IMG/VR virus record: IMGVR_UViG_2585427766_000017
DNA: 5,659 nt
Direction: 5' to 3' (one strand)
Origin: a virus
Taxonomy: Duplodnaviria > Heunggongvirae > Uroviricota > Caudoviricetes
Part shown: in pieces, positions 1-5,659 of the stretch
Position numbering within the stretch: position 1 is the stretch's first letter
Layout of the letters: each line of letters opens with the position of its first letter
Translations under genes and position numbers: made by a program
The notes under the pieces: generated by a model
Seen by the model: the letters and a program-made list of their open reading frames with translations, nothing else
Database searches by the model: none
Told to the model about the DNA's origin: nothing

Positions 1-2053
1 TGGCTGATTAAAACGGAACTGCTGGAAACGCAGACCGTGGACTTCAGCGTGGGTGCGGAAGGGCTTCGCCATGTACCGGGGGATGTCATTGAAATCTGCG
101 ATGATGACTATGCGGGTATCAGCATCGGCGGGCGCGTGCTGGCGGTGAACAGCCAGACCCGGACGCTGACGCTCGACCGTGAAATCACGCTGCCATCCTC
201 CGGTACCACGCTGATAAGCCTGGTTGACGGAAGTGGCAATCCGGTCAGCGTGGAGGTCCAGTCCGTCACCGACGGCGTGAAGGTAAAAGTGAGCCGTGTT
301 CCTGACGGCGTTGCCGGATACAGCGTGTGGGGGCTGAAGCTGCCGACGCTGCGCCAGCGCCTGTTCCGCTGCGTGAGTATCCGTGAGAACGATGACGGCA
401 CGTATGCCATCACCGCCGTGCAGCATGTACCGGAAAAAGAGGCCATCGTGGATAACGGGGCGCACTTTGACGGTGACCAGAGCGGCACGGTGAATGGTGT
501 CACGCCGCCAGCGGTGCAGCACCTGGCCGCAGAAGTCACTGCAGACAGCGGGGAATATCAGGTGCTGGCGCGATGGGACACACCGAAGGTGGTGAAGGGC
601 GTGAGCTTCCTGCTCCGTCTGACCGTAACAGCGGACGACGGCAGTGAGCGGCTGGTCAGCACGGCCCGGACGACGGAAACCACATACCGCTTCACGCAAC
701 TGGCGCTGGGGAACTACAGGCTGACAGTCCGGGCGGTAAATGCCCGGGGGCAGCAGGGCGATCCGGCGTCGGTATCGTTCCGGATTGCCGCACCGGCAGC
801 ACCGTCGAGGATTGAGCTGACGCCGGGCTATTTTCAGATAACCGCAACGCCACATCTTGCCGTTTATGACCCGACGGTACAGTTTGAGTTCTGGTTCTCG
901 GAAAAGCGGATTGCGGATATCAGGCAGGTTGAAACCAGCGCCCGCTATCTTGGCACGGCGCTGTACTGGATAGCCGCCAGTAGCAATATCAAACCGGGCC
1001 ATGATTATTATTTTTATATCCGCAGTGTGAATACTGTTGGCAAATCGGCATTCGTGGAGGCCGTCGGTCGGGCGAGCGATGATGCGGAAGGTTACCTGAA
1101 TTTTTATAAAGGGTTGATCAATAAAACACATCTCGCCAAGGAACTGTGGAAAACATTGATAACGGAAGATAACGCCAGCTGGCTGAAATCAGGACGTCCA
1201 TTCGAAAGAGTGAAAGGACGCCAACAAGAAATGGAAGACCATGTGGGGCGTCAAAATTGAGCAGACCAAAGACGGCAAACATTATGTCGCGGGGCTTGGC
1301 CTCAGCATGGAGGATACGGAGGAAGGCAAACTGAGCCAGTTCCTGCTGGCAGCAGACAGGATTGCGATGATTAATCCTGCAAACGGGAATGAAACGCCGA
1401 TGTTTGTGGCGCAGGGCAACCAGATATTCATGAACGACGTGTTCCTGAAGCGCCTGACGGCCCCCACCATTACCAGCGGCGGTAATCCTCCGGCATTTTC
1501 CCTGACACCGGACGGGCGGCTGACGGCGAAAAATGCCGATATCAGCGGTAACGTGAATGCGAACTCCGGGACGCTCAACAACGTCACGATTAACGAGAAC
1601 TGTCGGGTTCTGGGAAAATTGTCCGCGAACCAGATTGAAGGCGATCTCGTTAAAACAGTGGGCAAAGCTTTCCCCCGGGACTCCCGTGCACCGGAGCGGT
1701 GGCCATCAGGAACCATTACCGTCAGGGTTTATGACGATCAGCCGTTTGACCGGCAAATTGTTATTCCGGCGGTGGCATTCAGTGGCGCTAAGCATGAGAG
1801 AGAGCATACTGATATTTACTCCTCATGCCGTCTGATAGTGCGGAAAAACGGTGCTGAAATTTATAACCGTACCGCGCTGGATAATACGCTGATTTACAGT
1901 GGCGTTATTGATATGCCTGCCGGTTACGGTCACATGACACTGGAGTTTTCGGTGTCAGCATGGCTGGTAAATAACTGGTATCCCACAGCAAGTATCAGCG
2001 ATTTGCTGGTTGTGGTGATGAAGAAAGCCACTGCAGGCATCACGATTAGCTGA
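1..2053 (+). pseudogene. J: Tail-tip host specificity protein J (lambda gpJ family), 5'-partial and disrupted: central portion in frame 1 (1..1260) and C-terminal receptor-binding portion in frame 2 (about 1214/1241..2053)
   Basis: Frame 1 is open from nt 1 (the GTG at 37 is only the first start-like codon, not a real start) and reads [41 protein letters not shown]...[64 protein letters not shown]...[34 protein letters not shown], which I recognise as near-identical to the central, FN3-like region of lambda J (from memory). Frame 2 ORF 1241..2053 reads [30 protein letters not shown]...[45 protein letters not shown]...DMPAGYGH, matching the lambda J C-terminal region. The two parts are in different frames, and frame 2 carries TGA stops at 1184-1186 and 1211-1213, so no single ORF spans the gene. 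Confidence 0.85.
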
Positions 2054-2773: not shown

Positions 2774-2784
2774 GTGGGGTGAAT

Positions 2785-4295
<1,511 letters not shown>

Positions 4296-4296
<1 letters not shown>

Positions 4297-4925
4297 TGGA
4301 AGCAGTGGACTTTATTACTGCGGTCAGAAATGCCGCTTACAACGAATATGGTGCTATCACCTGCGAGGTTCAATTTGAGGGGGCCGTGGATGCCAGAGGG
4401 GAGCCGAAATGGTCTCCTTTTACGGCCACATCCTTAGATGTTACGGACTATGGCCGACAGCTTTACCATGATCTGGTAAATGGCAAATATGGCGAAGTCA
4501 CCCCATTCTCAGTCACACCTGAGATACTGGAAAGAGAAAAAGCAGCCAGGTGTGAAGAAATTAATCTCTGGCGCGACCAGCAGGAGAATATCGAATACCT
4601 GATGGAGTTTAACGGTCGTCGCTGGGATTACGGCAAGCACACAAAGGAGCGAATTTCAACATCGCTGACCGTTGCCAGAAGCGGGCAACTACCTGAGGGT
4701 TTTGCCTGGACAGATGGCGACAACAATATCGTGCCGGTCACGGCGGCTGAACTGCTGGCTCTGGGGGATGCCATTGAGCTGGCGATGTTCAACAAAGGTG
4801 TGGAAATAAATACCCGCCAGCTGCAGATGAAGGCTGAGGTCAGCGCGCTGCAAACGCTGGAGGAGATTCGGGGTTACGTGGTTGGATGGGCGCATGAGCA
4901 GGTTCACGACACCCGCAATTCTTGA
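4296..4925 (+). CDS. Hypothetical protein in the tfa position; putative tail fibre assembly/chaperone or accessory protein (possibly DUF4376-like, unverified)
   Basis: 209-aa ORF whose ATG (4296-4298) overlaps the stf TAA stop (4294-4296), giving a TAATG translational-coupling junction, with a GAGGGTAAGG Shine-Dalgarno-like stretch just upstream. It occupies the position of tfa in lambda, but I see no similarity to the lambda Tfa sequence. Confidence 0.6.
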
Positions 4926-5271
4926 AATGCTGGATGACTACCGCTGGCGACTGGTGGAACCGTTTGAATTCTGGCTCACGGACGAGCCGGAAGATGTTAT
5001 CAGCGTGCCGGCAGGTTACGTCACTGACCTGGCAAGCGTACCTCGCATCCTGTGGGCGATATTTCCTCCGCACGGGCGTTATGCCAAGGCTGCAATCATT
5101 CACGACTGGATGTACGACAATGGGCTCCGGACAAAAAGAGAGGCAGACAGGATTTTCCTGGATGCCATGAAGGTGCTTAAGGTACCTGCCTGGCGGCGTC
5201 TGATGATGTACTGTGCTGTACGTCTCTTCGGGCGGGGTAACTACGAACCGATACATCAAAAAACAATGTGA
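4894..5271 (+). CDS. DUF1353-like hypothetical protein (phage tail-region accessory protein of unknown function)
   Basis: ORF in a different frame that overlaps the 3' end of the 209-aa gene. It contains PAGYVTDLASVPR...AAIIHDWMYD, which resembles the motif I associate with DUF1353 proteins. The start is ambiguous: TTG 4882 (ORF-track start), ATG 4894 (chosen here), or ATG 4927, which lies one nt after the upstream TGA stop (4923-4925). Confidence 0.6.
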   Translation: MSRFTTPAILEMLDDYRWRLVEPFEFWLTDEPEDVISVPAGYVTDLASVPRILWAIFPPHGRYAKAAIIHDWMYDNGLRTKREADRIFLDAMKVLKVPAWRRLMMYCAVRLFGRGNYEPIHQKTM

Positions 5272-5410
5272 TTTCAGTGATTCACATATCCGGGATAAGA
5301 ATCAAGAAGCCTCAGACACGACGTATGCAGGACGTGCTGCGGTTGGCTGGTGAACTTTCGATAGTGCGAGTATTGAATGATTTCCAGCCGTTACCGATTT
5401 TACGTGTTAA

Positions 5411-5659
5411 TTAGTGAGCAAACCACTCGTCAGCAGACTCCCAGGTATCTTTCAGAGTTTCCTGAACAAAAGTTTTAGCTGAATCTTTATCGGCGGTGCG
5501 CGTAACAGAAAGGCCATCGTTGCTGGTAGCTTTTACGATCACCTCTACATCGTCATAACGTTTACTGATGCGTCGGGTTAATTCTTCCTTTAACGCATCC
5601 ACAGCACCGGTTGGCATTTTAGTCATTTTTTCTTTGGCTATGCAGATTTCAATACGCAT
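5411..5659 (-). CDS. dinI: DinI-family DNA-damage-inducible protein (RecA/SOS modulator homologue), complete; start codon is the last 3 nt of the window
   Basis: 82-aa minus-strand [14 protein letters not shown]...[20 protein letters not shown]...LSV...[11 protein letters not shown]. It matches the E. coli DinI pattern MRIE..IAK...P.GA.DAL..EL.RRI...LSV...QETWESADDWF in length and in N- and C-terminal signatures. Confidence 0.85.

What the first reader, a model, noticed from the sequence alone, without database searches (positions are those of the whole stretch)
4882..5271. DUF1353-like gene overlapping the end of the 209-aa gene: a conserved but unexplained tail-distal accessory gene
The small ORF overlaps the upstream gene by 32-44 nt (or starts one nt after its stop if ATG 4927 is used), so it belongs to the same operon as stf. 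It carries a T-D-x-A-S-x-P-R ... H-D-W-x-Y-D signature (identification from memory of the family). Function is unknown, and the tail-fibre-downstream position is a known hotspot for cargo genes, so it could be a virion accessory factor or a host-directed cargo or defence-type gene. Together with the 209-aa gene it is the best candidate for an uncharacterised module in this window.
Basis: partly seen in the sequence, partly recalled or inferred. Interest (0 to 1): 0.5.

Follow-up and report, generated by a model that had tools for sequence, protein, structure and literature searches.

The report
Prophage TtaP-like phospholipase A2 gene
The small gene after the tail-fibre genes is a real, conserved member of the DUF1353 family, whose one characterised member (Salmonella TtaP) is a phospholipase A2, so it most likely encodes a membrane-lipid-cutting enzyme made late in phage growth; its role in the phage is still untested.

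The parts
4894..5271 (+). DUF1353 / TtaP-like phospholipase A2 gene (125 aa; the in-frame TTG at 4882 is probably not the start)
   Evidence: ORF. Pfam PF07087 at E=5e-34. The 99%-identical 125-aa E. coli protein P0001 starts at this ATG. 63% identical to the S. arizonae TtaP orthologue. dN/dS 0.04-0.11.
4894..4925 (+). 32-nt overlap between the end of the DUF4376 gene and the start of the DUF1353 gene (translational coupling inferred)
   Evidence: Read directly from the sequence. Relatives show overlaps or gaps of a few nt: 4-nt overlaps in many IMG/VR loci, and an 8-nt overlap in E. coli E423 and a 4-nt overlap in Campylobacter CJIE1.
5023..5046 (+). T-D-L-A-S-V-P-R loop motif; D45 is a candidate Ca2+/active-site ligand (inferred)
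   Evidence: D45 is conserved in 95%, P50 in 99%, T44 in 93% and A47 in 95% of 140 family representatives. D45 is invariant in 11 diverse phage homologues.
5101..5148 (+). Catalytic core: H70-D71-x-x-Y74 ... D85
   Evidence: H70 99%, D71 99%, Y74 95%, D85 96% in 140 representatives. These residue numbers match the TtaP catalytic H70/D71/D85, and D85A abolishes PLA2 activity in TtaP (PMC11525133). In the AF2 model they lie on helices 64-76 and 81-94.
4296..4925 (+). DUF4376 protein (209 aa), the probable tail-fibre chaperone of the cassette
   Evidence: Pfam PF14301 at E=1e-15 and PHROG 1141. DUF4376 proteins V22 gp27, A5 gp9 and the CJIE1 chaperone were tested experimentally.
2779..4296 (+). 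Side tail fibre Stf (505 aa), with an N-terminal phage_tail_N domain and collagen-like G-D-K repeats at 3727-3839
   Evidence: Pfam PF08400 at E=2.9e-72 and a below-cut-off Collagen match (24.8 bits against 27.2). Tandem repeat of 9/27-nt period.

Best explanation
The gene encodes a small (125 aa) cytoplasmically made phospholipase A2 of the TtaP/DUF1353 family. It has no signal peptide and a single cysteine. An N-terminal beta-hairpin module is followed by a three-helix core that carries a His70/Asp85 dyad plus Asp71, as in group XIII/XIV secreted PLA2s. This identity is supported by homology to an assayed enzyme, conserved catalytic residues and a fold match. The gene is translated from the late tail operon, coupled to the DUF4376 fibre-chaperone gene, so it is made only at the end of the lytic cycle (read from the sequence). 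The proposed role is inferred. The enzyme would hydrolyse host envelope phospholipids once the lysis programme breaches the inner membrane, acting as an accessory to holin, endolysin and spanin that helps break up the membranes of a diderm cell and free progeny. It would stay inactive in the cytoplasm until exposed to external Ca2+, by analogy with Ca2+-dependent secreted PLA2s; this is also inference. The ttaP-ttsA pair of the typhoid-toxin islet would then be a domesticated PLA2 + muramidase pair from such a phage. I put the PLA2 identity at about 0.85 and the lysis/egress role at about 0.4. The confidence figure given is for the whole statement.
For: Identity:
- Pfam DUF1353 at E=5e-34.
- 63% identity over 113 aa to the DUF1353 gene directly downstream of cdtB in S. 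arizonae, which is the ttaP position.
- TtaP was shown to be a PLA2 by EnzChek assay and lipid HPLC, and D85A abolishes activity (PMC11525133).
- H70, D71 and D85 are invariant in 11 diverse phage homologues and 96-99% conserved in 140 representatives.

Late expression:
- 32-nt overlap with the chaperone gene, and no promoter-like or + strand terminator-like site between stf and the stop.

Link to lysis:
- DUF1353 lies 0-2 genes from an endolysin, holin or spanin in 11 of 22 phage lineages sampled.
- Examples: phiRTG5 (endolysin-hyp-DUF1353-holin); FNU2; JD-Fnp5 and Funu2; the AH02 clade (holin-holin-endolysin-DUF1353); Segz_1 and Bas80 (endolysin-holin-Rz spanin-DUF1353); SPN3US (endolysin gp156, DUF1353 gp157); DA10 (holin upstream); SYP (lysozyme downstream); NrS-1; the Aquificae virus.
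- One metagenomic protein, P0382, is a DUF1353-Phage_lysozyme fusion.
- TtaP-type loci have a GH108 + PG_binding_3 muramidase (TtsA-like) as neighbour.
- Every named host among about 100 sampled phage hits, plus the top genera lists, is diderm.
- SPN3US gp157 is absent from the virion mass-spectrometry table.

Not the fibre chaperone:
- The DUF4376 gene fills that role.
- As described, the campycin constructs carried only the H-fibre and the DUF4376 gene.
- DUF1353 stays 73-88% identical while the adjacent DUF4376 and Stf drop to 41-53%.
Against: - In this window, and in most close relatives, the gene is not in the lysis cassette. It is tightly linked to the tail fibre and its chaperone: DUF4376 is the upstream gene in 29 of 65 distinct cases. 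That linkage would also fit a fibre- or virion-associated role.
- No lysis phenotype has been reported for any DUF1353 gene. A ttaP deletion gave no envelope or secretion phenotype.
- Segz_1 and Bas80 already carry a spanin, so the enzyme is not a spanin substitute.
- Some phages place the gene in neither context: CP81, CBB and 201phi2-1.
- Ca2+ gating is pure inference.
- The SPN3US virion table as held may be incomplete, since gp158 is named in the text but missing from the extracted table.
- The 22-lineage sample was chosen from spread BLAST rows and relies on depositors' annotations.
Confidence: 0.4

Rival explanations
1. The protein is a virion- or fibre-associated PLA2 used at entry. It would be carried on the side tail fibre, possibly through the DUF4376 cap, and would locally hydrolyse envelope lipids of the next host to help adsorption or penetration, in the way the parvovirus VP1u PLA2 or virion-borne lysins work.
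For: The gene is tightly and repeatedly linked to the fibre and its chaperone in lambda-like, P2-like and Mu-like prophages and in Francisella and Helicobacter phages. It appears translationally coupled to the chaperone gene. The N-terminal beta module is not found in other PLA2s and could be a docking module. Lysozyme domains, as in the P0382 fusion, also occur in virion proteins.
Against: The outer leaflet of the diderm outer membrane is LPS, so there would be little substrate (general knowledge). DUF1353 conservation is uncoupled from fibre and chaperone divergence. Many phages keep the gene in the lysis cassette, far from fibre genes. SPN3US gp157 is not in the virion proteome table. No virion proteomics evidence was found in the literature searched.
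Confidence: 0.2
2. The protein is a lysogen-benefit factor, as proposed for TtaP. It would be expressed from the prophage, or kept by the host after the prophage decays, and would remodel the bacterial envelope, for example for outer-membrane vesicle formation or for release of proteins and toxins.
For: The closest characterised relative, TtaP, was domesticated into a toxin islet and put under a PhoPQ-activated promoter. The window's J gene is frameshifted, so this prophage may be defective while the DUF1353 ORF remains intact. The gene sits at the extreme end of the prophage next to a dinI-like moron.
Against: It has no promoter of its own and no terminator separates it from the late operon. 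Its GC content matches the fibre genes. It overlaps the chaperone gene. It is also present in strictly lytic phages such as the Bas80 group, SPN3US, the Campylobacter Fletcherviruses and jumbo phages.
Confidence: 0.15
3. The protein is a non-enzymatic tail or tail-fibre assembly chaperone, as the PHROG 1158 and GenBank labels state.
For: PHROG 1158 'tail assembly chaperone' matches at E=6.7e-49. Many GenBank records carry that label. The gene occupies the position where tfa sits in lambda and P2.
Against: I found no experiment behind the label. There is no Pfam Caudo_TAP match. The DUF4376 gene is the tested chaperone. Near-invariant His/Asp/Asp catalytic residues would be unexpected in a pure chaperone. 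The gene sits in lysis cassettes far from tail genes in many phages. A family member has demonstrated PLA2 activity.
Confidence: 0.08
4. The gene is an anti-phage defence or superinfection-exclusion cargo gene sitting in the hotspot downstream of the tail fibre.
For: Phospholipases do serve as effectors in some defence systems (mentioned in PMC13236601).
Against: There is no PADLOC hit. There is no sensor partner. The gene is coupled to the chaperone gene and conserved as part of the fibre cassette in many phage types, including lytic phages. Its composition is not atypical.
Confidence: 0.04

Closest known systems
TtaP (typhoid toxin-associated phospholipase; STY1887/t1110), DUF1353/PF07087; Gartly et al., J Biol Chem 2024 (PMC11525133)
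   Same: Same Pfam family and same length (125 aa). 63% identical to the S. arizonae orthologue. Identical positions for H70, D71 and D85. No signal peptide and no disulfide pairs. The same predicted fold, with a three-helix PLA2-like core.
   Different: It is not in a typhoid-toxin islet: there is no cdtB upstream and no ttsA nearby. It sits at the end of a prophage tail-fibre operon behind a DUF4376 chaperone gene. It is therefore a prophage paralogue, not TtaP itself. Its activity has not been assayed.
Group XIII/XIV secreted PLA2s (Tuber borchii TbSP1, PDB 4AUP; Streptomyces violaceoruber PLA2, PDB 1LWB)
   Different: Under 20% identity. No match to any Pfam PLA2 family. No sequence-level hit in the PDB. 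No secretion signal or propeptide. No conserved disulfides (one Cys). An extra N-terminal beta-strand module.
Accessory envelope-lipid enzymes of phage lysis, e.g. mycobacteriophage LysB (mycolylarabinogalactan esterase), and spanins or disruptin as outer-membrane disruptors
   Same: Recurrent placement next to endolysin, holin and spanin genes, restriction to hosts with an outer membrane, and a lipid-ester-hydrolysing chemistry all suggest an analogous step that deals with the outer lipid barrier.
   Different: There is no homology to LysB (an alpha/beta-hydrolase cutinase-like enzyme) or to spanins. No lysis phenotype has been shown. In this window the gene lies in the fibre cassette, not the lysis cassette.
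Tail-fibre assembly proteins (lambda Tfa / P2 G / Mu U, Pfam PF02413) and DUF4376 chaperones (Alteromonas V22 gp27, Campylobacter CJIE1)
   Same: The gene occupies the position downstream of the fibre gene and carries database labels such as 'tail assembly chaperone'.
   Different: There is no sequence match to PF02413 or DUF4376. The DUF4376 neighbour is the chaperone. DUF1353 has a conserved catalytic centre and is often found away from tail genes.

Membership tests
DUF1353 (PF07087) / TtaP-type PLA2 | Profile match above the Pfam gathering threshold across the whole domain | tested here: met
   E=5e-34, 116.2 bits against a cut-off of 22.5, profile positions 1-91 of 91.
DUF1353 (PF07087) / TtaP-type PLA2 | Catalytic His70/Asp85 dyad plus Asp71 | tested here: met
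   H70, D71 and D85 are present at the same numbering and aligned with the TtaP orthologue. They are 96-99% conserved in the family.
DUF1353 (PF07087) / TtaP-type PLA2 | Small single-domain protein with no signal peptide and no structural disulfides | tested here: met
   125 aa, one Cys, maximum 19-residue Kyte-Doolittle hydropathy 1.15, so no transmembrane or signal-like segment.
DUF1353 (PF07087) / TtaP-type PLA2 | Three-helix PLA2-like core fold | tested here: met
DUF1353 (PF07087) / TtaP-type PLA2 | sn-2 phospholipid hydrolysis activity | not testable with these tools
   Shown only for S. Typhi TtaP (PMC11525133). It needs an enzyme assay for this protein.
TtaP orthologue (typhoid-toxin islet gene) | Located directly downstream of cdtB in the five-gene islet with ttsA, pltA and pltB; at least about 80% identity to TtaP | tested here: not met
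   The neighbours here are stf, DUF4376 and dinI. Identity to the islet copy is 63%. The paper uses 80% as its cut-off.
Group XIV secreted PLA2 (prokaryotic/fungal) | Sequence-family match, secretion signal or propeptide, and two conserved disulfides | tested here: not met
   No Pfam PLA2 family at E<=0.01. No PDB sequence hit. One Cys and no signal-like segment.
Tail-fibre assembly protein (Caudo_TAP PF02413) | Profile match; required for fibre folding | tested here: not met
   No PF02413 hit. The second feature cannot be tested here. Literature constructs gave functional fibres with only the DUF4376 gene.
Prophage moron / cargo gene | Own promoter and terminator, atypical composition, variable presence independent of neighbours | tested here: not met
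   No promoter-like site and no terminator upstream. GC is 0.52-0.56, like the fibre genes. It co-occurs with DUF4376.
Known anti-phage defence systems (PADLOC) | Match to a defence-protein model | tested here: not met
   0 families at E<=0.01.

The most novel reading that the evidence does not exclude
DUF1353 phospholipases A2 are a widespread, so far unrecognised accessory component of phage lysis or egress in diderm bacteria. They would be made in the cytoplasm late in infection and switched on when the holin exposes them to external Ca2+. They would then degrade inner- and outer-membrane phospholipid alongside endolysin and spanin. The ttaP-ttsA pair of the typhoid-toxin islet would be a domesticated copy of this PLA2 + muramidase module, which would explain the unknown role of TtaP in toxin release.
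Probability: 0.3. Interest if true: 0.7.

Novelty: new member of a known kind. Interest (0 to 1): 0.35.

Why it matters
Database labels for this very large family are either empty ('DUF1353') or probably wrong ('tail assembly chaperone'). The family has more than 11,000 clusters at 50% identity. Recognising its phage members as TtaP-like PLA2s gives a testable biochemical activity to a common late phage gene. It also links an orphan virulence-islet gene (ttaP, next to the phage-derived muramidase ttsA) to a phage origin. If the lysis link holds, it would add a lipid-hydrolysing step to the holin-endolysin-spanin model for Gram-negative hosts. These small, disulfide-free PLA2s could also be useful enzymes. 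For this particular window the finding is an ordinary member of that family.

Tried and rejected
- A single-sequence AlphaFold run was useless, at pLDDT 42.7. An alignment of two clades fixed this.
- NCBIfam has no model for either small gene.
- The genome-contig scan with the single protein gave only 3 loci, but one was the S. arizonae cdtB-ttaP locus.
- The search for related loci with the very diverse alignment A1 failed because there was no conserved stretch.
- A profile search of the big protein database with A1 returned only the same enterobacterial clade and was a wasted search.
- My crude gene caller mis-called small antisense ORFs, so I replaced it with a same-strand neighbour rule.
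- Literature searches for PF07087, for follow-up work on TtaP, and for phospholipases in phage lysis found nothing relevant beyond the 2024 paper.
- I looked for virion proteomics support. SPN3US gp157 is not in the virion table, but the extracted table may be incomplete. I did not check 201phi2-1 gp4 or the Campylobacter phage proteomes.
- Rejected readings: defence gene; moron; start at ATG 4927, which removes a conserved N-terminus; start at TTG 4882, whose extension is absent from annotated homologues.

Full report
**What is in the window.** The 5.66-kb window is the right end of a lambdoid prophage of E. coli.
- It holds the C-terminal two-thirds of the tip protein J, lom, a side tail fibre gene stf (2779-4296), a 209-aa gene (4296-4925), the ORF in question, and a convergent dinI-like gene (5411-5659, minus strand).
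- Bases 3808-5659 are 99.95% identical to an E. coli draft assembly. In that assembly the same genes are followed by host yecD-like and aspS genes, so the ORF is the last gene of the late operon at the prophage edge.

**Observation check.** The ORF exists.
- The motifs T-D-L-A-S-V-P-R and H-D-W-M-Y-D are present.
- Pfam DUF1353 matches over its full length at E=5e-34.
- The likely start is ATG 4894, giving 125 aa. The 99%-identical database protein starts there, and the N-terminus MS(R/K)FTTPA is conserved across the family, including in TtaP. The overlap with the upstream gene is therefore 32 nt.
- No promoter-like site, and no terminator-like site on the + strand, lies between stf and the stop codon. 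The only + strand terminator-like site is after lom. GC content is the same as in the fibre genes.
- The gene is under strong purifying selection: dN/dS is 0.04-0.11 and dS is saturated.
- It recurs in many prophages. It is rare in complete E. coli genomes, matching at DNA level in 51 of 5,426. Named database relatives are mostly from Salmonella.

**What it is.** The family is no longer of unknown function.
- A 2024 paper showed that TtaP, the DUF1353 protein of the typhoid-toxin islet, is a phospholipase A2. The evidence was a fluorogenic sn-2 assay and lipid HPLC, and D85A abolished activity. The catalytic residues are H70, D71 and D85. The paper found a distant HHpred relationship to group XIV PLA2s (1LWB, 4AUP) (PMC11525133).
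- I recovered a ttaP orthologue in S. enterica subsp. arizonae, directly downstream of cdtB. The window protein is 63% identical to it over 113 residues without gaps. It has the same length and the same H70/D71/D85.
- These residues, together with Y74, D45 and P50, are invariant or 95-99% conserved. This holds in 11 diverse phage homologues and in 140 representatives of a family of about 11,100 clusters at 50% identity.
- An AlphaFold model built on a two-clade alignment has pLDDT 84.7. It shows four short N-terminal strands and three helices.
- The protein has one cysteine and no hydrophobic segment. It is a cytoplasmic product and not a classical secreted PLA2.

**The neighbour.** The 209-aa gene is a DUF4376 protein.
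- DUF4376 proteins downstream of fibre genes are experimentally supported fibre chaperones. The examples are Alteromonas V22 gp27 and A5 gp9 and the Campylobacter CJIE1 prophage.
- In CJIE1 the gene order is H-fibre (cje0231), DUF4376 (cje0230), DUF1353 (cje0229). As described in the paper, the functional 'campycin' constructs carried only the fibre and the DUF4376 gene.
- The same trio occurs in an E. coli P2-like prophage, in Francisella phage KIRK and probably in Helicobacter phages.
- In 80 IMG/VR loci with 47-88% identical DUF1353 genes, DUF4376 was the upstream gene in 29 of 65 distinct cases. CdtB was upstream in 8, which are typhoid-toxin-type loci. Those loci also account for the 9 GH108 + PG_binding_3 (TtsA-like) downstream neighbours.
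- DUF1353 stays 73-88% identical where the adjacent chaperone and fibre fall to 41-53%. It is therefore not co-evolving with the receptor-binding parts.
- Together with the catalytic conservation, this makes the PHROG and GenBank label 'tail assembly chaperone' unlikely to be correct. I found no experiment behind that label.

**A second context.** In 22 phage lineages inspected, DUF1353 lies within 0-2 genes of lysis genes in 11.

| Phage | Arrangement |
|---|---|
| Fusobacterium phiRTG5 | endolysin-hyp-DUF1353-holin |
| Fusobacterium FNU1/FNU2 | two genes before an amidase |
| Fusobacterium JD-Fnp5, Funu2 | downstream of an M15 peptidase |
| Pseudomonas AH02 clade | holin-holin-endolysin-DUF1353; GenBank already says 'phospholipase' |
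| Segz_1, Bas80 | endolysin-endolysin-holin-Rz spanin-DUF1353 |
| SPN3US | endolysin gp156, DUF1353 gp157 |
| Campylobacter DA10 | holin upstream |
| Pseudomonas SYP | lysozyme downstream |
| Nitratiruptor NrS-1 | before holin and lysozyme |
| Aquificae virus | two genes before holin and lytic transglycosylase |

- One metagenomic protein, P0382, fuses DUF1353 to a phage lysozyme domain.
- Every named host among about 100 sampled phage hits, and in the top genera lists from two different queries, is diderm.
- SPN3US gp157 is not in the published virion mass-spectrometry table as held here. That extraction may be incomplete.
- Some phages place the gene in neither context: CP81, CBB and 201phi2-1.

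**Mechanism.**
- Supported by evidence: the family has PLA2 chemistry, this member keeps the catalytic residues, and it is made from the late operon coupled to the chaperone gene.
- Inferred: it acts on host envelope phospholipid at the end of infection as an accessory to the lysis machinery. It may be held inactive by low cytoplasmic Ca2+ until the membrane is breached. D45 and D71 would be the Ca2+ ligands, by analogy with the Streptomyces enzyme, whose residue numbers I recall from memory.
- The ttaP-ttsA pair would be a domesticated version of such a PLA2 + muramidase module.
- The main rival is a fibre- or virion-borne entry enzyme, which the tight fibre linkage in this clade favours.
- Lesser rivals are a lysogen-benefit factor (the J gene here is frameshifted), a true chaperone, and a defence gene (no PADLOC hit).

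**Novelty and verdict.** The 2024 paper already states that other DUF1353 proteins are probably PLA2s and notes the prophage homologues. This gene is therefore a new member of a known kind.
- What is not in the literature I could search is the dual fibre-cassette and lysis-cassette distribution, the lysozyme fusion and the restriction to diderm hosts. Together these make a lysis or egress role a concrete, testable hypothesis.
- Interest is moderate at 0.35.
- My confidence that it is a PLA2 is about 0.85. My confidence in the lysis role is about 0.4.

Noticed in passing
window 1-2053 (shift near 1188-1202): The tip attachment gene J is split between two reading frames. J residues 450-846 read in frame 1 up to nt 1188, and residues 849-1133 read in frame 2 from nt 1202. 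The related E. coli contig has an intact 1132-aa J. This is either a sequencing error or a frameshift that makes the prophage tail-defective.
   Followed up: partly
window 3727-3839 (inside stf): A collagen-like G-D-K tandem repeat (9-nt unit, about 12 copies; 27-nt super-unit) lies in the side tail fibre. Stf is 505 aa here but 476 aa in the otherwise near-identical E. coli contig L044, and identity drops to about 93% upstream of nt 3808, so the fibre shaft differs between the two; I did not check whether repeat copy number accounts for the length difference.
   Followed up: partly
Members of that family are experimentally supported tail-fibre chaperones (Alteromonas V22 and A5, Campylobacter CJIE1). 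PHROGs labels it 'tail fiber protein'.
   Followed up: yes
L004 7271-7759 (E. coli E423) and L012 7571-8041; L014 7851-8065: Downstream of the cassette, some prophages carry a second, truncated DUF4376 gene (annotated as a pseudogene) or a second partial DUF1353 copy. These look like remnants of fibre-cassette exchange.
   Followed up: no
P0382 (JGI metagenome contig, L126 219-965): A natural fusion of DUF1353 (residues 17-105, HD and D intact) with a Phage_lysozyme domain (120-242). The contig is only 1.2 kb, so there is no genomic context.
   Followed up: partly
P0278 (270 aa): A tandem duplication of the DUF1353 domain within one protein. Both copies keep the HD...D residues.
   Followed up: no
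L086-L088, L092-L097, L100 (IMG/VR contigs): Typhoid-toxin-type loci (cdtB, then ttaP-like, with a divergent GH108 TtsA-like muramidase) are present on contigs that IMG/VR classifies as viral. This fits a prophage origin or prophage carriage of the islet.
   Followed up: partly
L002 11418-12386 (S. arizonae): About 2 kb from the cdtB-ttaP pair lies a 322-aa protein with a Tox-PLDMTX (dermonecrotoxin papain-like) domain and then a phage tail C-terminal domain protein. IS-like fragments lie between them.
   Followed up: no
window 5411-5659 (minus strand) and 2747-2768: A dinI-like gene converges on the DUF1353 gene at the prophage edge, and megablast matches to this region were found in most E. 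coli genomes. A strong terminator-like hairpin follows lom. Both are typical moron features and contrast with the DUF1353 gene.
   Followed up: partly
L006 3495-4201 (Fusobacterium phage phiRTG5): In this phage a DUF4376 protein (220 aa) sits immediately upstream of the endolysin-hyp-DUF1353-holin block and is separated from the tail fibre gene by an integrase. The fibre-chaperone and lysis contexts of DUF1353 therefore meet in one cluster.
   Followed up: no
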